Source of the DNA: Alphaproteobacteria bacterium
GTDB taxonomy: Bacteria; Pseudomonadota; Alphaproteobacteria; CALKHQ01
Reading direction: 5' to 3'
DNA length: 64,000 nucleotides
Assembly: GCA_965227515.1 (NCBI GenBank)
Contig: CBDDFZ010000001.1
Span: 1,216,001-1,280,000 of the forward strand
Positions 1,224-40,730 of this stretch are shown here, one piece after another; the stretch's first letter is position 1, and every line of letters starts with the position of its first letter. Position numbers and translations under genes: made by a program. The notes under the pieces were generated by a model, which ran no database searches, had not been told where the DNA came from, and worked only from the letters and a program-made list of their open reading frames with translations.

Positions 1224-1441
1224 GGCGGCGTTTCCTCTCTGATTGGGGGGAATCCACGCGGAATTGCGACGCTACTCTACCTAGCCGGATTCCCCAGCAC
1301 GGACCAGCCCGTTTTCCTTGCATATGCGACAGTTTGCGGACATCGCGATAATGCTAGGATGCACAAGCAGTGTCATTCGGCCTGACGTTGGCGCCCACGC
1401 GGCCCGCCGACCGACCAGGCCATCTACCGCGAGAGGGCCGC

Positions 1442-3046
1442 ATGGGCGAGGGCAACGGAACCCATCCGAACGGGCTATTCATCGGCAAGGGCGACGAGGC
1501 GCAGTACCTCGATCTCGCCTATGCCAACCGGCACGGTTTGATCACCGGCGCCACCGGCACCGGCAAGACCGTGACCCTGCAGATCCTGGCCCAGGGTTTC
1601 TCGGACGCCGGCGTGCCGGTCTTCGCGCCGGATATCAAGGGCGACCTCGCCGGCATCTCGCAGGCCGGCGAGATGAAGGATTTTCTCACCAAGCGCGCCA
1701 ACACCATCGGTCTCGACCCCTACGTCATGGGTGGCGCGCCGGTGGCGTTCTGGGACCTGTTCGGCGAGGACGGCCATCCGGTGCGCACAACCGTTTCGGA
1801 GATGGGCCCGCTGCTGCTGTCGCGGCTGATGGGGCTGAACGACGTGCAGTCCGGCGTGCTCGACATCGCGTTCCGCATCGCCGACGAGCAGGGCCTGCTG
1901 GTGCTCGACCTGAAGGACCTGCGCGCCCTGCTGGTCCATGTCGCAGAGCAGGCGAAGGACATCTCGATCACCTATGGCCAGGTCAGCCGGACCTCGGTCG
2001 GCGCAATCCAGCGCCGTTTGCTGTCGCTAGAGGAACAGGGCGGCGACAAGTTCTTCGGCGAGCCTGCGCTGGCGCTTTCGGACCTGATGCGCAAGGACAG
2101 CGCCGGGCGGGGCGTGGTCAACATCCTCTCCGCCTCCGCGCTGATGACCGAGCCGAAGCTCTACGCCACCTTCCTGATGTGGCTGCTGGCCGAACTGTTC
2201 GAGCAATTGCCGGAAGTGGGCGACCCGGACAAGCCGAAGCTGGTGTTCTTCTTCGACGAGGCGCACATGCTGTTCCGCGACGCGCCGCCGGCACTGGTGG
2301 AGAAGATCGAGCAACTGGTGCGGCTGATCCGGTCCAAGGGCGTCGGCGTGTTTTTCGTGACCCAGAGCCCGCTCGATATTCCGGACCGGGTGCTGGGCCA
2401 GCTCGCCTGCCGTATCCAGCACGCGCTACGCGCCTTTACCCCGCGCGACCGCAAGGCGATCGCCGCGGTCGGCGACACCTTCCGCCAGAACCCGAAGTTC
2501 GACGCCTCGGCGGTGATCCCCGAACTCGGCATCGGCGAGGCGCTGGTCTCCACGCTGCAGGCCAAGGGCGTGCCCTCGATGGTGGATCGCACGCTGATCA
2601 GGCCGCCGGCCTCGCGCATGGGCCCGATCAGCGAGCAGGAACGGGCGGCGATACTGGGCGAGAGCCCATTGCGGGCGATCTATGGAAAGGCGATCGACCG
2701 CAAGTCGGCCTACGAGATGCTGCAGGGACGGGCCGACGAACGGCCGATGGACCGCGCCGGCGACGGCGATTACGAAGGCTGGGGCCGCCCGGCCAGGACA
2801 GGCGGCGGCTGGGGTGCCGCCGGGTCGACCGAACGCGCCGAGGTGCAGCGCGACGAGCAGCCGCGCGCGCGGTATTCCCGCGACCGCACCTCCGGCGACG
2901 ATGGATGGGGCAAATCGAAGTCCCGGTCGTCCAGCCGGCAGACCGCAGGCGAGGCATTCATCAAGTCATTGTCGCGCAGCGCCGGCACCCAGATCGGCCG
3001 CCAGCTCACCCGGGGCCTGCTCGGCTCGCTGTTCGGCGGGCGTTAG
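1442..3046 (+). CDS. yjgR: HerA-like P-loop ATPase, DUF853/YjgR family
   Basis: [16 protein letters not shown] (Walker A), FFDEAH (Walker B), [15 protein letters not shown] and a C-terminal RGLLGSL. Start moved to ATG 1442, behind GAGAGGG. Confidence 0.88.
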
Positions 3047-3182
3047 AGCGCCGCGAAACTCATTCCGCGTAGATGGGCTAACGGCCCTTGTTTGGTGGCG
3101 TGCATGAGTGGTCGTCCCTCAAGATGTCGGTGTCATACACGGAGTCGGGTTTGCCGCTCCAAGACATCGAGGAGAGACGACC

Positions 3183-4226
3183 ATGAACTACTATGCCGGG
3201 ATTGACGTTTCTTTGGAATGGTCATCGGTATGCGTTGTTGACGGCGCGGGCGGGATTGTCTGCGAGGCTCGTATTGCGAGCACGCCGGCGGGTTTGTTGT
3301 TGTGGTTTGGGTCTTTGGGGATTTCGGTTGAGCGGATTGGTCTTGAGGCGGGGCCGTTGTCGCAATGGCTTGTGCGGGAGTGCGCGCAGGGCGGTCTTTC
3401 GGTTGAGTTGCTGGAGACGCGTCATGTTGCGCGGGCCCTTTCGACGATGCCGGTGAAGTCGGACCGCTCGGACGCACGCGGGATTGCTCAGCTGATGCGT
3501 GTGGGCTGGTTTCGTCCGGTTCACTGCAAGTCTTTGGCGGCCCAGGAGATGCGGGCCCTTTTGAAGGGTCGCGACCAGCTCCGCGCGAAGCTGCACGATC
3601 TTGAGATGCACCTTCGTGGTCAGCTGCGGAACTTCGGGCTGAAGGTAGGGCACACCACCAGGCGCAGCTTTTCGACACGTATTTCGGAGCTTGTGGCGGG
3701 GCATCCGGTACTGGAGGCGGTGGCGGGGGCGCTGCTGTCGGCACGCGATGGCCTGTTGCTATCGTTCACGGCGCTGGACCGGCAGGTCCGGGCGGCGGCG
3801 CAGGCCGACGATCGCGCTCGCCTGCTGATGACGGTGCCGGGCGTGGGGAGCATTGTCGGACTGACCTACTTGTCGGGAGTGGACGACCCCGGGCGGTTTG
3901 CCTCGTCGCGCCTGGTGGGTGCGCACTTCGGCCTGACGCCGACCAAGCGCCAGTCGGGCGAGAGCGAGGTGATGGGGCGGATATCGAAGGTAGGGGACGC
4001 CGATGTGCGCTCGGCCCTCTATGAGGCGGCACACGTGGTTCTGACCCGGCCGATCGAGGGCGGCTGGCTGAAGAGCTGGGCGATGAAGCTGGCCAGGCGT
4101 GCGGGCATGAGGAAGGCGAAGGTCGCGCTGGCGCGCCGGCTCGCCGTGATCATGCACCGGATGTGGGTTGACGGCACACCGTTCAACCATGCCGGACCGG
4201 TGCGCCCGGCGATGGCGACAGCATGA
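3183..4226 (+). CDS. IS110-family transposase/recombinase
   Basis: RuvC-like DEDD residues (AGID, GLEA, KSDRSD), HhH motif VPGVG and serine motif RQSG. GGAGAG RBS before ATG 3183. Confidence 0.95.
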   Translation: MNYYAGIDVSLEWSSVCVVDGAGGIVCEARIASTPAGLLLWFGSLGISVERIGLEAGPLSQWLVRECAQGGLSVELLETRHVARALSTMPVKSDRSDARGIAQLMRVGWFRPVHCKSLAAQEMRALLKGRDQLRAKLHDLEMHLRGQLRNFGLKVGHTTRRSFSTRISELVAGHPVLEAVAGALLSARDGLLLSFTALDRQVRAAAQADDRARLLMTVPGVGSIVGLTYLSGVDDPGRFASSRLVGAHFGLTPTKRQSGESEVMGRISKVGDADVRSALYEAAHVVLTRPIEGGWLKSWAMKLARRAGMRKAKVALARRLAVIMHRMWVDGTPFNHAGPVRPAMATA

Positions 4227-4299
4227 TGGCCGCGGCATAAGGAGAACCGACACACGAGCTTCGACGGGCACCGACACCGGCCCGTCGAGCGCCGTCCCG

Positions 4300-4460
4300 C
4301 GCCGGGACGATGGATCAGGTCAGGCCGCCATCCGGGATGTCGCCTCGCATGAGAGCACGCTTCCGTAGATTGGACCGACCGATCCTCGCATATCCATCTT
4401 GGCGGCGGCCCTGCGCCGACCCCGTACAGAAGCATGACCCAGGCGCCGGGACGACGAAAA
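4300..4460 (+). ncRNA. Predicted bridge/seek RNA of the IS110 element (ends approximate)
   Basis: Guides: CATCCGGG 4329-4336 (complement of the right target flank), CGTAG 4364-4368 (left target flank plus core), CCATCTT 4394-4400 (complement of the circle junction) and TACAGAAG 4425-4432 (element right end). The target guides are enclosed by GGATC/GATCC and GGTC/GACC stems. Confidence 0.75.
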
Positions 4461-4492
4461 AGGGATTGACCAACAATGGCCCGTTACAGAAG

Positions 4493-4589
4493 CCCGGATG
4501 CAGCGGCGCGCAATCCGGGGCCTTTAGTGCTGGAAGGCTGGGCGATGGAAGGTATGTCCCCGGGTTTCGCTGCGCTCCACCCGGGCTAC
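4493..4589. repeat. GTAG-type REP doublet whose left arm is split by the IS110 (its GTAG is at 3069-3072)
   Basis: CCCGGATGCAGCGGCGCGCAATCCGGGG ... CCCCGGGTTTCGCTGCGCTCCACCCGGGCTAC. Same family as 40643-40730 and 44807-44892. Confidence 0.85.
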
Positions 4590-4623
4590 GATTGTTGGTG
4601 CCTTCCGATCGCAACGGTCATGC

Positions 4624-4653
4624 AAAAGGCCGCGCCCAAAGAAGGACGCGGCC
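4624..4653 (-). terminator. Rho-independent terminator downstream of the TelA-family gene
   Basis: Minus strand GGCCGCGTCC-ttcttt-GGGCGCGGCC-TTTT, just past the stop codon. Confidence 0.6.
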
Positions 4654-4680
4654 CTTGGCAGTTCGATTCTGAAGTGAGCG

Positions 4681-5835
4681 TCAGGCGGTGGCCTGGGCGG
4701 CGCGCTGCAGCGATTCCTTCAGCTTGTTCTCGGCGTCGATCAGGTCCTGTTCCGCCGCGCGGCGCTTGGTGCGCCCTTCCTCGGCGATGCGGATCGAATC
4801 CTCGATGGTGCCGATCAGGTTCTCGTTCGCCGCCTTCACGACCTCGATGTCGTAGATGCCGCGCTCCATCTGCTCGCGGATCTGCGCGTTGGACTGGCGC
4901 AGATTTGCGGCGTTGGCGCTCAGCAGCTCGTTGTTCAGGTCGTGGACCGCCTTCACCGTCTCGCCGGCCTCCGCCGCGCGATACATGGTCACCGCCTGGG
5001 CGAGCTGGGTCTTCCACAGCGGGACGGTGTTCAGGAGGGCGGACTGGATCTTGTTGACCAGCATCTTGTCGTTTTCCTGCACCAGCCGGATGGAGGGCAG
5101 GGACTGCATGACGACGGTGCGGGTCAGCTTCAGGTCGTGGACCCGGCGCTCCAGCTCGTCGCGCGCCGAACTCAGGTCGCGCAGCGCCTGGGCATCGGCC
5201 ATGTCGCCGGTTTCCTCGGCCTTCTTCGCCAGCGCCGGGATGTCGGTCTCGTCCAGCCGGCGCAGCTTCTCCTCGCCGGCGGCGATGTAGTCGGCCAGCT
5301 CGTGGAAATACTCCAGCGTCGACTCATACAGCCGGTCGAGCATCAGGATGTCCTTCAGGAGCTGCTGCTTGTGCTTGTCCAGCGTGTTGGTCAGGCTGTC
5401 GATCTGGTTGCCGACGGTCTCGTACTGCTGGATGAAGCGGGCCACCGGCGAGATGGCACCGAACATGCGCGCGATGAAGCCCGGCTTCTTGCCGTCCTTC
5501 AGGTCGTCGATCTCCAGGCCGCGTACCTGGAGCATCATGTTGTTGAGCGCTTCGCCGGCCGGGCCGGTGTCCTTGTTGCGCACGCCTTCCAGCATGGTTT
5601 CCGACACTTCGGTCACCTGGCGCTGGGCCTGTACGCCAAAGGCGATGATCGAGTGCGAATCGCTCATGTCGATCTGCTCGATCAGACTCTCTATCTTCTG
5701 CTTCTCTTCCGCCGACGCCTCGTTGTAGACGACGATGTTGGCGGCAGGTTCGGTCAGCGTCTTCAGCGCCTCGTCAGGCACTTCGGTTGCGGTCACGGTG
5801 GGTGCGGCAACCGTCTGGGTCTGGGTCTCGCTCAT
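4681..5835 (-). CDS. Toxic anion resistance protein, TelA/KlaB family
   Basis: Coiled-coil protein with SIIAFGVQAQ, LERRVHDLKLTR, QSLPSIRLVQEND and TVPLWKTQLA. Confidence 0.88.
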   Translation of the reverse strand: MSETQTQTVAAPTVTATEVPDEALKTLTEPAANIVVYNEASAEEKQKIESLIEQIDMSDSHSIIAFGVQAQRQVTEVSETMLEGVRNKDTGPAGEALNNMMLQVRGLEIDDLKDGKKPGFIARMFGAISPVARFIQQYETVGNQIDSLTNTLDKHKQQLLKDILMLDRLYESTLEYFHELADYIAAGEEKLRRLDETDIPALAKKAEETGDMADAQALRDLSSARDELERRVHDLKLTRTVVMQSLPSIRLVQENDKMLVNKIQSALLNTVPLWKTQLAQAVTMYRAAEAGETVKAVHDLNNELLSANAANLRQSNAQIREQMERGIYDIEVVKAANENLIGTIEDSIRIAEEGRTKRRAAEQDLIDAENKLKESLQRAAQATA

Positions 5836-40642: not shown

Positions 40643-40730
40643 GTAGCCCGGGTGGAGCGCAGCGCAACCCGGGGTAAATCCGTGCCGCCACCCGTAGTCC
40701 CCGGGTTCCGTTCCACTCCACCCGGGCTAC
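40643..40730. repeat. GTAG-type REP doublet (intact)
   Basis: GTAGCCCGGGTGGAGCGCAGCGCAACCCGGGG ... CCCCGGGTTCCGTTCCACTCCACCCGGGCTAC. Confidence 0.88.

What the first reader, a model, noticed from the sequence alone, without database searches (positions are those of the whole stretch)
3066..4589. IS110 inserted precisely at the GTAG tetranucleotide of a host REP
Seen: the left flank ends ...CGCGTAG and the right end reads ...CAGAAG|CCCGGATGCAGCGGCGCGCAATCCGGGG. Deleting 3073-4492 restores GTAGCCCGGATGCAGCG..., the left arm of the REP doublet family found intact at 40643 and 44807. Only AG is shared and there is no longer target duplication. The hit arm is the CCCGGAT variant that matches the guide perfectly. 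The five other arms in the window read CCCGGGT, which would pair through one U-G wobble. Inference: the element is programmed against a multicopy intergenic repeat, giving many low-cost landing sites and possibly REP-to-REP rearrangements.
Basis: partly seen in the sequence, partly recalled or inferred. Interest (0 to 1): 0.75.

Follow-up and report, generated by a model that had tools for sequence, protein, structure and literature searches.

The report
RNA-guided insertion sequence targeting REP repeats
This is an ordinary member of a known class of mobile elements that use a small RNA of their own to insert at one exact spot in a short repeat scattered through the host genome; two variants in this genome differ by one guide letter and sit in repeat variants that match it.

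Summary
Window 3073-4492 is a 1420-bp IS110-family element of the IS1111 type. It has a DEDD transposase, 18-nt subterminal inverted repeats and a 266-nt non-coding end downstream of the gene. The genome holds 20 full copies and one internally deleted copy. All 21 lie between the GTAG tetranucleotide and the 7-bp hairpin stem of a REP (GTAG|CCYGGRT), and only the dinucleotide AG is shared between donor and target. About 121 empty REPs of this family exist, and a RAYT-like gene is bracketed by two of them.

The downstream non-coding end has a conserved, covarying fold. It carries segments matching both target flanks and both element ends, which is the known bridge/seek RNA layout. Thirteen copies carry guide AUCCGGG: 9 sit in CCCGGAT, 2 in CCCGGGT and 2 in CCTGGGT. 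Seven copies carry AUCCAGG, and all 7 sit in CCTGG sites. Relatives in other Alphaproteobacteria show the same guide-flank matching for three further targets.

The empty yjgR-telA allele could not be found. REP targeting by IS110-family elements, RNA guidance and wobble tolerance are all published. This is a new member of a known kind, of modest interest.

The parts
3066..3072 (+). Left half of the interrupted REP target (CGCGTAG). GTAG is at 3069-3072, and AG at 3071-3072 is the core dinucleotide shared with the element end.
   Evidence: the left flank ends GTAG in 21 of 21 copies.
3073..4492 (+). Insertion sequence, 1420 bp, IS110 family, IS1111 group. Because of the shared AG the boundaries can be drawn up to 2 nt further left.
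   Evidence: Full-length matches to exactly these ends in 20 other places of the genome. Flanks diverge immediately outside them.
3079..3096 (+). Left subterminal inverted repeat, 6 nt in from the left end.
   Evidence: pair I6: 18 nt, 78% complementary to 4469-4486.
3109..3183 (+). 5' leader hairpin (arms 3109-3120 and 3172-3183) that covers the ribosome-binding site and the first base of the ATG. A likely translational brake (inferred).
   Evidence: pair I19: 12 nt, 92% complementary. The same arms are seen in relatives' upstream regions.
3183..4226 (+). Transposase/recombinase gene, 347 aa.
   Evidence: Pfam DEDD_Tnp_IS110 (E 1.6e-12) and Transposase_20 (E 2.3e-20). GLTPTKRQSG motif at residue 250. 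C-terminal match to the IS621 transposase 8wt6, E 2.6e-11.
4227..4492 (+). Long 3' non-coding end that encodes the putative bridge/seek RNA.
   Evidence: 266 nt against a 110-nt left end. Scaffold conserved in relatives.
4312..4385 (+). Target-binding module. A closing stem (4312-4326 with 4372-4385) encloses an internal loop with the two target guides and a variable hairpin.
   Evidence: RNAalifold helix 2 has 12 pairs, 6 with changes on both sides. The MFE fold gives the same stem.
4328..4336 (+). Guide complementary to the top strand of the right target flank. CCATCCGGG is the reverse complement of CCCGGATGG. Position 4334 is G in 13 copies and A in 7.
4363..4368 (+). Guide of the same sense as the left target flank plus core (CCGTAG). 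It would pair with the bottom strand.
4394..4400 (+). Donor guide CCATCTT, the reverse complement of AAG|ATGG, the joined right and left element ends.
   Evidence: sequence read.
4404..4421 (+). Conserved hairpin between the two donor guides.
   Evidence: RNAalifold helix 3 has 5 pairs, 3 with changes on both sides, 98.8% of cells paired.
4426..4432 (+). Donor guide ACAGAAG, identical to the last 7 nt of the element.
   Evidence: the 7-mer equals the right-end 7-mer in 9 of 9 elements whose right end was located, in three sequence classes.
4469..4486 (+). Right subterminal inverted repeat, 6 nt in from the right end.
   Evidence: pair I6.
4493..4519 (+). Right half of the interrupted REP: stem CCCGGAT, 13-nt loop, stem ATCCGGG.
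4559..4589 (-). Intact partner REP in inverted orientation (GTAG-CCCGGGT-loop-ACCCGGG on the minus strand). Together with 4493-4519 it forms a REP doublet.

Best explanation
Window 3073-4492 is an active-looking copy of an IS1111-group (IS110 family) insertion sequence. Its DEDD recombinase works with a structured RNA encoded in the 266-nt right end. By analogy with characterised relatives, the element excises as a circle that joins its right and left ends (...ACAGAAG|ATGGGC...). The RNA holds that junction with one pair of loop segments (CCAUCUU and ACAGAAG). It holds the target with a second pair: CCAUCCGGG pairs with the top strand of CCCGGATGG, and CCGUAG pairs with the bottom strand of CGTAG. 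Strand exchange occurs at the shared AG. The target is the boundary between the GTAG tetranucleotide and the hairpin stem of the host's RAYT-associated REP family, so the element has over a hundred intergenic landing sites.

Shown here:
- the insertion geometry in all copies;
- the conserved, covarying RNA fold;
- the guide-flank and guide-end matches and their covariation within the genome and across relatives.

Inferred from published relatives: expression of the RNA, the circular intermediate, and the chemistry.
For: 1. Family. Pfam DEDD_Tnp_IS110 and Transposase_20 both match. The C-terminal domain matches the IS621 and ISCro4 transposase structures at E about 3e-11. The GL-P----SG motif is present.

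2. IS1111-type anatomy. The subterminal inverted repeats are 3079-3096 and 4469-4486. The long non-coding end lies downstream of the gene. The protein is 347 aa.

3. Insertion geometry. All 21 of 21 copies are flanked GTAG|...|CC[CT]GG[AG]TG, in one orientation relative to the REP. In 21 of 21 the right flank forms the REP hairpin.

4. Solo targets. There are 124 uninterrupted sites, 121 of them with the hairpin.

5. RNA structure. In 16 aligned right-end regions from this genome and relatives, 94.7% of cells pair, 10 of 20 pairs carry compensatory changes, and 0 of 500 shuffles reach this. Pairing falls to 35-53% when partners are slid by 1-3 columns.

6. Guide-target covariation inside the genome. 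Position 4334 is G in 13 copies (11 in CCC sites, 2 in CCT sites) and A in 7 copies (0 in CCC, 7 in CCT); Fisher p = 5e-4.

7. Guide-target covariation across relatives. In 9 of 11 elements the guide shares an 8-9-nt run with its own right flank, in four different target classes, against 2-6 nt for guides paired with flanks of other classes.

8. Donor guide. Its 7-mer equals the right-end 7-mer in 9 of 9 elements, in three classes.

9. Order of segments. The top-strand match lies 5' of the bottom-strand match, as reported for IS1111 seekRNAs (PMC11187229, section 9 read).

10. Recent activity. Three copies are 100% identical over the full length, and 20 of 20 full-length copies keep an open 345-347-aa frame.
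Against: - No RNA data were examined, so transcription and processing of the right-end RNA are not shown.
- Rfam found no family in 2500-5200 at E up to 1.
- The single-sequence fold is not unusually stable (z = -0.8 to -1.6).
- In two of 11 relatives (L037, L044) the top-strand guide does not match the right flank (run of 4 nt).
- The guide does not pair with the core G on the top strand in this lineage (read).
- The terminal extensions outside the inverted repeats are 6-8 nt on the left and 4-6 nt on the right, not the 7/3 or 6/3 given for the IS1111 family (PMC11187229, passage seen).
- Eleven of 21 copies sit in sites with G at target position 6, where neither guide variant forms a Watson-Crick pair. 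That position is therefore read loosely or through rU:dG wobble.
- The empty allele of this locus was not found.
Confidence: 0.88

Rival explanations
1. The transposase alone recognises the REP hairpin as a DNA structure, as a RAYT or a site-specific recombinase would. On this view the matching segments in the right end are coincidental or only reflect shared ancestry.
For: The target is a hairpin in 21 of 21 cases. A target stem-loop has been reported as a second specificity determinant for the REP-targeting ISPpu10 (bioRxiv 10.64898/2026.03.19.712850; abstract and passages read). Position 6 of the target is not matched by Watson-Crick pairing in 11 of 21 copies.
Against: The single guide change G4334A goes with the C-to-T change in the occupied sites (13 and 7 copies, p = 5e-4), while the proteins of the two lineages differ by only 2-11 residues in 6 of the 7 A-guide copies and by 27 in the seventh, c20. 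Relatives with three other targets carry the matching 8-9-mers at the same place in the scaffold. One copy (c20) sits in a 12-nt REP fragment without the canonical hairpin.
Confidence: 0.04
2. The REP halves are part of the mobile unit: the element is longer than 1420 bp and carries REP-like ends with it, so no REP was ever targeted.
For: The same few bases (GTAG, CCYGG) flank every copy. In run X1 one 1430-nt contig covers 3069-4497, and in run X2 one contig starts at 3069 and another ends at 4495, so these contigs include those flanking bases.
Against: Sequence to the left of GTAG is different in all 21 copies. The REP loops and stems to the right differ between copies (four stem variants, many loop variants). 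There are 124 uninterrupted GTAG+CCYGGRT units without any element, 121 of them with the hairpin. No solo left or right element end exists elsewhere: 21 hits each, all within the 21 copies.
Confidence: 0.02
3. This is a sub-question rather than a full rival. The two G-guide copies found in CCTGGGT sites (c08, c09) were placed there by the A-guide RNA of the sister lineage acting in trans, not by rG:dT wobble of their own guide.
For: The two lineages have identical terminal sequences and donor guides, so either RNA could handle either donor. Trans action of recombinase plus RNA on split donors is reported for ISPpu10 (passage seen) and for ISEc11 (passage seen).
Against: A G:T wobble at a target-guide position was reported to support insertion for ISPpu10 (passage seen), so wobble is equally possible. 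Nothing here tells the two apart.
Confidence: 0.4

Closest known systems
ISPa11 of Pseudomonas aeruginosa (IS1111 group; seekRNA shown experimentally)
   Same: It is an IS110-family element of the IS1111 type with a downstream non-coding region. All copies sit at one fixed position of the host REP without a usual direct repeat (PMC1525189, Results read). An RNA from the downstream region co-purifies with the transposase and carries a top-strand match 5' of a bottom-strand match (PMC11187229, section 9 and passages).
   Different: The host class differs (Alphaproteobacteria here), as do the REP sequence and the guide. ISPa11 inserts between REP bases 6 and 7, whereas here the insertion lies after the GTAG tetranucleotide. 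I did not align the two proteins. No RNA or transposition data exist for the element here.
IS621 of Escherichia coli and its bridge RNA
   Same: It has a DEDD recombinase and an RNA with separate target-binding and donor-binding loops. Donor and target share a core dinucleotide, and natural targets lie in REPs: 144 of 173 mapped insertion sites in the assay were in REP elements (PMC11208160, passages seen). The C-terminal domain is alignable (8wt6, E 2.6e-11).
   Different: IS621 is of the IS110 group, with its RNA in the left end upstream of the gene. The order of the strand matches is reversed, the core is CT rather than AG, and the inverted repeats are only 2-3 bp. The N-terminal domain is not significantly alignable by phmmer here.
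ISPpu9 and ISPpu10 of Pseudomonas putida
   Same: All 7 of 7 copies of each are in REPs at one position, with a 2-bp repeat at the insertion point (PMC1525189). For ISPpu10, G.U and G.T wobble pairs are tolerated at the guide-target interface, REP targets often occur as convergent pairs, and the target stem-loop contributes to recognition (bioRxiv 10.64898/2026.03.19.712850, passages). ISPpu9 transposase expression is controlled by a 5'-UTR structure (PMC8450116, abstract in the search listing), which resembles the leader hairpin at 3109-3183.
   Different: They differ in host and REP. ISPpu10 is described with a left-end bridge RNA and a CT core. The stem-loop reported for ISPpu10 lies 5' of the paired target, whereas here the guide pairs with the 5' arm of the hairpin itself.
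RAYT-associated REP families (GTAG-type)
   Same: The unit is a GTAG tetranucleotide followed by a 7-bp stem and a 13-nt loop. There are over 120 copies, frequently in inverted doublets. A Y1_Tnp gene (C1:1603806-1604378) is bracketed by two inverted copies. That a 5' GTAG is the hallmark of RAYT-associated REPs is recalled, not checked in a paper here.
   Different: Nothing unusual was seen in the REPs themselves. The stem comes in four compensated variants (CCCGGGT, CCTGGGT, CCCGGAT, CCTGGAT).

Membership tests
IS110 family (DEDD transposases) | N-terminal DEDD/RuvC-like domain plus C-terminal Transposase_20 domain | tested here: met
   PF01548, E 1.6e-12, residues 5-150. PF02371, E 2.3e-20, residues 212-287. 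Both are above the curated cut-offs.
IS110 family (DEDD transposases) | Site-specific insertion without a conventional target duplication; a short core shared by donor and target | tested here: met
   All 21 of 21 copies are at GTAG|CCYGGRT, and only AG is shared.
IS1111 group | Subterminal inverted repeats (7-17 bp in PMC11208160; usually 11-13 bp in PMC11187229) | tested here: met
   Arms 3079-3096 and 4469-4486: 18 nt, 78% complementary ungapped, 6 nt from each end. Relatives have a perfect 10-mer TAATCGGCCG at the same place (read).
IS1111 group | Longer non-coding region downstream of the transposase gene | tested here: met
   266 nt downstream against 110 nt upstream.
IS1111 group | Transposase of 330-350 aa with a GL-P----S(t)G motif | tested here: met
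   347 aa, with GLTPTKRQSG at residue 250. The criterion comes from PMC11187229, section 6.
IS1111 group | Terminal extensions of 7 (or 6) bp on the left and 3 bp on the right beyond the inverted repeats | tested here: not met
   The extensions are 6/6, 7/5 or 8/4, depending on where the shared AG is assigned. No assignment gives 3 bp on the right.
Bridge RNA / seekRNA | Structured RNA region with conserved helices in the non-coding end | tested here: met
   There are 20 consensus pairs, 94.7% of cells pair, 10 pairs have compensatory changes, and 0 of 500 shuffles reach this. The caveat is that the sequences are related.
Bridge RNA / seekRNA | [quoted passage not shown] | tested here: met
   Within the genome, G4334A goes with C-to-T. 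Across relatives, 9 of 11 elements have an 8-9-nt match to their own flank, in four classes. The bottom-strand guide matches 2-8 nt.
Bridge RNA / seekRNA | Second pair of segments matching the element ends (donor-binding loop) | tested here: met
   The 3' donor guide 7-mer equals the right-end 7-mer in 9 of 9 elements, in three classes. The 5' donor guide matches 5-8 nt of the end junction.
Bridge RNA / seekRNA | The RNA is expressed, binds the recombinase and is required for transposition | not testable with these tools
   No RNA run was examined. The one run search was used for DNA.
Bridge RNA / seekRNA | Match to a curated RNA family model | tested here: not met
   There was no Rfam 15 match at E up to 1 in 2500-5200. 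I do not know whether Rfam 15 holds a model for IS1111-type bridge RNAs.
RAYT-associated REP | Short palindromic unit with a conserved 5' tetranucleotide, in many intergenic copies | tested here: met
   There are 124 GTAG+CCYGGRT sites, 121 with a stem of at least 6 of 7 pairs and 111 with a 13-nt loop.
RAYT-associated REP | A Y1 (HUH) transposase gene flanked by inverted REPs | tested here: met
   PF01797 hit of 23.9 bits (cut-off 23) at C1:1603908-1604246. REPs lie at 1603786(+) and 1604429(-). The score is only just above the cut-off.

The most novel reading that the evidence does not exclude
Inside one genome, two sister lineages of one RNA-guided insertion sequence have split a REP family between them through a single guide nucleotide, and wobble pairing makes the split asymmetric. 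The G-guide (AUCCGGG) can read both CCC and CCT stems, prefers the perfect CCCGGAT, and behaves as a generalist. The A-guide (AUCCAGG) is confined to CCT stems. This would be a natural, ongoing case of guide reprogramming and niche partitioning among copies that share the same donor ends, and so can also be moved by each other's RNA.
Probability: 0.5. Interest if true: 0.4.

Novelty: new member of a known kind. Interest (0 to 1): 0.3.

Why it matters
It adds a clean alphaproteobacterial example to a mechanism described in 2024. All 21 copies can be read against about 121 empty targets in one closed genome, so site preference can be counted rather than guessed. The perfect-match REP variant is occupied about ten times more often than the one-wobble variant. 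A one-base guide variant occupies only the REP variant that it can pair with. That makes this element and its two natural guides a convenient pair for testing mismatch and wobble rules of IS1111-type guide RNAs. It does not change what is known about the family.

Tried and rejected
1. Empty yjgR-telA allele in relatives. The search of 30 related genomes returned only three of the same family, all of another genus. In those three the herA-like gene and telA are not adjacent, and neither is followed by this REP.

2. Empty allele in public runs. Contigs of four runs (X1-X4) were laid on 2450-5300. No contig joins 3072 to 4493. Cover of the flanks was patchy, so this says nothing either way.

3. 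Exact-word scans of metagenome contigs. One scan used a 21-nt word of the left flank and one a 24-nt word between the two REPs. Both gave 0 hits.

4. Rfam gave no match.

5. Single-sequence folding of the right end gave energies within the range of shuffles. Only the comparative fold was informative.

6. Promoter scan of 2950-4700 found 0 sigma-70-like sites. A TTGACC at 4466-4471 could form a junction promoter with the left end after circularisation, but I did not test the joined sequence.

7. Base -5 of the left flank as a test of the bottom-strand guide. C is present in 16 of 21 occupied sites (counted by eye), against at least 45 of 63 empty CCCGGGT sites (only the 8 commonest contexts are listed). 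There is no enrichment, so this guide effectively reads only the constant (C)GTAG.

8. Earlier notes of this scan on the same genome concern a different repeat class, CGTC-type REP doublets. They have no bearing on the target of this element.

9. I did not search protein databases for a named ISfinder relative. The best plasmid-borne relatives are 62-68% identical and are annotated only as 'IS110 family transposase'.

10. Supplementary files of the cited papers were not seen. Target logos for ISfinder entries in the supplements of PMC11187229 and PMC11208160 might already include this element or a close relative.
Full report
**What is there.** Between a HerA_C/YjgR-like gene (1370-3046, plus strand; Pfam HerA_C, E 5.6e-223) and a telA gene (4681-5835, minus strand; Pfam TelA, E 6.8e-111) lies a 1420-bp element at 3073-4492. 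It has one open frame of 347 aa (3183-4226) with the two Pfam domains of IS110-family transposases: DEDD_Tnp_IS110 (E 1.6e-12) and Transposase_20 (E 2.3e-20). The left non-coding end is 110 nt and the right one 266 nt. Imperfect 18-nt inverted repeats lie 6 nt inside each end, at 3079-3096 and 4469-4486. The protein carries GLTPTKRQSG. This fits the GL-P----S(t)G motif that Siddiquee et al. give for IS1111-type transposases, and its length is in their 330-350 aa range (PMC11187229, section 6). Its C-terminal domain aligns with the solved IS621 and ISCro4 transposases at E about 3e-11. The one feature that does not fit their description is the length of the terminal extensions. These are 6-8 nt on the left and 4-6 nt on the right here, against 7 or 6 and 3 (passage).

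Every detail checks out:
- The left flank ends CGCGTAG at 3072, and the element ends ...CAGAAG at 4492.
- The right flank begins CCCGGATGCAGCGGCGCGCAATCCGGGG.
- Only AG is common to the flank end and the element end.
- Uninterrupted units GTAG-CCCGGGT-13 nt-ACCCGGG start at 40643 and 44807.
- The five other GTAG-bearing arms in the window (40643+, 40730-, 44807+, 44892-, 4589-) all read CCCGGGT.
- The interrupted REP and the inverted intact REP at 4559-4589 form a doublet like the two further along the window.

**All genomic copies.** The window lies in a genome of two contigs (4.07 and 1.45 Mb, 66.6% G+C). The element matches 22 places. These are 20 full-length copies (89-100% identical) and one copy with an internal deletion, which was reported as two pieces. 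A separate BLAST of the two non-coding ends finds 21 hits each, all inside these copies, so there are no solo ends.

- In 21 of 21 copies the left flank ends GTAG and the right flank begins CC[CT]GG[AG]TG. Sequence further left is different in every copy.
- The right flank forms the REP hairpin in 21 of 21. Twenty have 7 of 7 stem pairs and a loop of 13-14 nt. Copy c20 is atypical: a 12-nt REP fragment followed at once by a complete REP.
- Sixteen of 21 have an inverted partner REP within 130 nt to the right, and none has a REP within 130 nt to the left. The element therefore always sits on the outer, GTAG side of a doublet.
- All 20 full-length copies keep an open frame of 345-347 aa, and three copies are identical over the full length.

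**The target family.** The genome has 124 uninterrupted GTAG+CCYGGRT sites: 65 CCCGGGT, 35 CCTGGGT, 21 CCCGGAT and 3 CCTGGAT. Composition predicts 2-8 per variant. Of these, 121 have a stem of at least 6 of 7 pairs, and 111 have a 13-nt loop. The 3' arm changes with the 5' arm (CCCGGAT...ATCCGGG, CCCGGGT...ACCCGGG), so the stem is maintained. A Y1_Tnp (HUH) gene at C1:1603806-1604378 scores 23.9 bits, just above the cut-off of 23. It is bracketed by two inverted copies of the REP, which is the usual arrangement of a REP-associated tyrosine transposase. Earlier notes of this scan describe a second, CGTC-type REP class in the same genome. None of the 21 copies is in that class.

**The guide RNA.** In relatives of the transposase from other Alphaproteobacteria (29 loci, 43-69% identical), the region downstream of the gene keeps a common scaffold. 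An alignment of 16 non-redundant right-end regions gives a consensus fold with three helices:
- a small 5' hairpin;
- a long stem (window 4312-4326 with 4372-4385) that closes an internal loop and a variable hairpin;
- a second hairpin (4404-4421).

Across the 20 pairs, 94.7% of cells pair and 10 pairs show changes on both sides. No shuffle of 500 reaches these values, and sliding the partners by 1-3 columns drops pairing to 35-53%. The sequences are related, so the shuffle count is not a probability. Folding the window sequence alone is uninformative (z = -0.8 and -1.6), and Rfam has no match.

The unpaired segments next to these helices are the informative part:
- Just 3' of the long stem's 5' strand lies CCATCCGGG (4328-4336), the reverse complement of the right flank CCCGGATGG.
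- Just 5' of its 3' strand lies CCGTAG (4363-4368), the same sense as the left flank.
- Flanking the second hairpin are CCATCTT (4394-4400), the reverse complement of AAG|ATGG, that is, the right end joined to the left end.
- On its other side is ACAGAAG (4426-4432), identical to the last 7 nt of the element.

This is the two-loop layout of bridge RNAs, which Durrant et al. predicted to lie in the right end of IS1111-group elements (PMC11208160, passages). The order, with the top-strand match 5' of the bottom-strand match, is the one Siddiquee et al. found for IS1111 seekRNAs (PMC11187229, section 9).

**Covariation, the main test.**

Within the genome, the right ends fall into two types that differ at position 4334.
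- Thirteen copies (c01-c13) have G, giving guide AUCCGGG. They sit in CCCGGAT (9 copies), CCCGGGT (2) and CCTGGGT (2).
- Seven copies (c14-c20) have A, giving guide AUCCAGG. They sit in CCTGGGT (6) and CCTGGAT (1), and never in a CCC site.
- Guide base against target base 3 gives 11/2 versus 0/7, Fisher p = 5e-4.
- Counting empty hairpin-validated sites as the denominator, the G-guide lineage occupies 9 of 29 CCCGGAT sites against 4 of 113 others (p = 8e-5), and 2 of 65 CCCGGGT sites.
- The A-guide lineage occupies 7 of 48 CCT sites against 0 of 94 CCC sites (p = 4e-4). Copy c21, whose guide region is deleted, was left out of the lineage counts but counted in the denominators.
- The copies are not independent events in the strict sense, since some may be ancient and shared. 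These p-values are therefore indicative only.

The pattern is what base pairing predicts. A guide G can pair with target C or, by wobble, with T. A guide A pairs only with T. At target position 6 neither guide offers a Watson-Crick partner for G, yet 11 of 21 copies sit in such sites. That position must therefore be tolerated through rU:dG wobble or read loosely. The G-guide lineage's strong preference for A at that position suggests it is read. The two G-guide copies in CCTGGGT could equally have been placed by the A-guide RNA acting in trans, because both lineages share identical ends and donor guides. I cannot tell these apart.

Across relatives, 11 elements have both ends and both guides located.
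- The top-strand guide shares an 8-9-nt run with its own right flank in 9 of them. These fall into four target classes: CCCGGATG here, GGCGGATT in L036, CCCGCATG in L038 and L039, and AGCGGACAT in the L042 group.
- Guides compared with flanks of other classes share 2-6 nt.
- Two elements (L037, L044) do not match their right flank (4 nt). I have no explanation; they may be secondary rearrangements or copies moved by another RNA.
- The bottom-strand guide shares 2-8 nt with the left flank. In this genome it reads only the constant (C)GTAG.
- The 3' donor guide equals the terminal 7-mer of the right end in 9 of 9 elements where that end was found, in three classes: ACAGAAG, AGAGAAG and AGCGAAG.
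- Every relative's left flank ends in AG and every right end ends in GAAG, so AG is the conserved core.

**Mechanism.** The best-supported account has four steps. The element excises as a circle. The right-end RNA holds the circle junction with its donor loop and the REP boundary with its target loop. The DEDD recombinase exchanges strands at the shared AG. The product is GT-AG-element-AG-CCYGG. The insertion geometry, the RNA fold and the guide matches with their covariation are shown here. RNA expression, the circle and the chemistry are inferred from ISEc11, ISPa11 and IS621 (PMC11187229, PMC11208160).

**Other samples.** Contigs of public runs show the same element with the same ends. In X1 a 1430-nt contig covers exactly 3069-4497. 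In X3 a contig covers 3067-4519, and its loose ends equal the left flanks of this genome's copies c09 and c20. None of the four runs bridges the empty site.

**What could not be done.**
- The three same-family genomes held belong to another genus and lack the gene adjacency.
- No run contig joins 3072 to 4493.
- Two exact-word scans of metagenome contigs found nothing.

The case for precise insertion therefore rests on the 21 concordant junctions and the 121 intact paralogous targets, not on an orthologous empty site. Rearrangements between copies were not examined beyond two observations: copy c14 is a mosaic of the two lineages (98.0% and 97.8% identical to them), and c21 has an internal deletion.

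**Comparison with what is known.**
- REPs as targets of IS110-family elements were shown by genome analysis in 2006. ISPa11 (6 of 6 copies), ISPpu9 (7 of 7), ISPpu10 (7 of 7) and ISRm19 (4 of 4) each sit at one position of the REP (PMC1525189, Results and Table 2). The same was shown experimentally for IS621.
- RNA guidance and natural reprogramming were published in 2024 (PMC11187229, PMC11208160).
- A 2026 preprint on ISPpu10 reports that G.U and G.T wobbles are tolerated at the guide-target interface. It also reports that REP targets often come as convergent pairs and that the element marks the borders of large amplifications (bioRxiv 10.64898/2026.03.19.712850, passages).
- The word 'wobble' does not occur in the main texts of the two 2024 papers.
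- A search for 'bridge RNA' + 'wobble' + 'IS110' found three papers, of which only the preprint is relevant.

The element here is at most 68% identical in protein to plasmid-borne relatives, which are annotated simply as IS110-family transposases. It is probably an unnamed insertion sequence, though I could not check ISfinder or the papers' supplements.

**Verdict.** This is a new member of a known kind. The one feature worth a specialist's second glance is the within-genome split of REP variants between two guide variants, with the asymmetry that wobble pairing predicts.

Noticed in passing
G000 C1:1603786-1604429 (outside the window): A Y1_Tnp (HUH) gene of about 170-190 aa is bracketed by two inverted GTAG-CCCGGGT REPs. 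It is the likely RAYT of the REP family that the insertion sequence targets. The Pfam score is only just above the cut-off (23.9 against 23 bits). A second Y1_Tnp hit at C1:2017088-2017375 has no such REPs within 1.2 kb.
   Followed up: partly
window 3109-3183: A 12-nt inverted repeat, 92% complementary, in the transposase leader pairs the ribosome-binding site and start codon with an upstream segment. The same arms recur in relatives' leaders. It resembles the 5'-UTR structure reported to control the ISPpu9 transposase.
   Followed up: no
window 3075-3096 (+) and 4468-4494 (-): Terminator-like hairpins followed by T-runs lie at both element ends, facing inward from each flank. They would shield the element from read-through transcription. 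This comes from the consensus scan only.
   Followed up: no
G000 C1:926326-927754 (copy c14): This copy is a mosaic of the two lineages: 98.0% identical to the G-guide type and 97.8% to the A-guide type, with the A-type right end. This indicates recombination or gene conversion between copies.
   Followed up: partly
G000 C1:998357-999181 (copy c21): This copy has an internal deletion of element positions about 718-1298. The deletion removes the end of the gene and both target guides but keeps both ends and the donor guides, so the copy could only move with RNA and protein supplied in trans.
   Followed up: partly
G000 C1:694774-696202 (copy c20, 89% identical): The oldest-looking copy sits in a 12-nt REP fragment (CCTGGATGGAAC) that is followed directly by a complete GTAG REP, so its target lacks the canonical hairpin. 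Its subterminal repeats carry the same-strand change C to T at the centre of both arms (GGCCC to GGTCC). This is not the pattern expected for an inverted repeat read as a palindrome.
   Followed up: no
L037:2094-2297 and L044:2095-2284: In these two relatives the top-strand guide does not match the right flank (longest shared run 4 nt). In L044 the bottom-strand guide matches the left flank over 8 nt. This is unexplained.
   Followed up: no
window 4300-4315 and 4392-4407: The nearly invariant segment GGGACGATGGAT upstream of the target module is 81% complementary to the donor-guide region ATCCATCTTGGCGGCG, and it resembles the left-end terminus. It could be an alternative pairing that masks the donor guide, or a closing stem of the whole RNA. 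There is no covariation to decide between these.
   Followed up: no
runs X3 and X1, laid on window 2450-5300: Run X3 carries insertions with the same left flanks as this genome's copies c09 and c20, so these two insertions are shared with another sample. In X1 and X2, contigs of the element stop within 5 nt of the element ends.
   Followed up: partly
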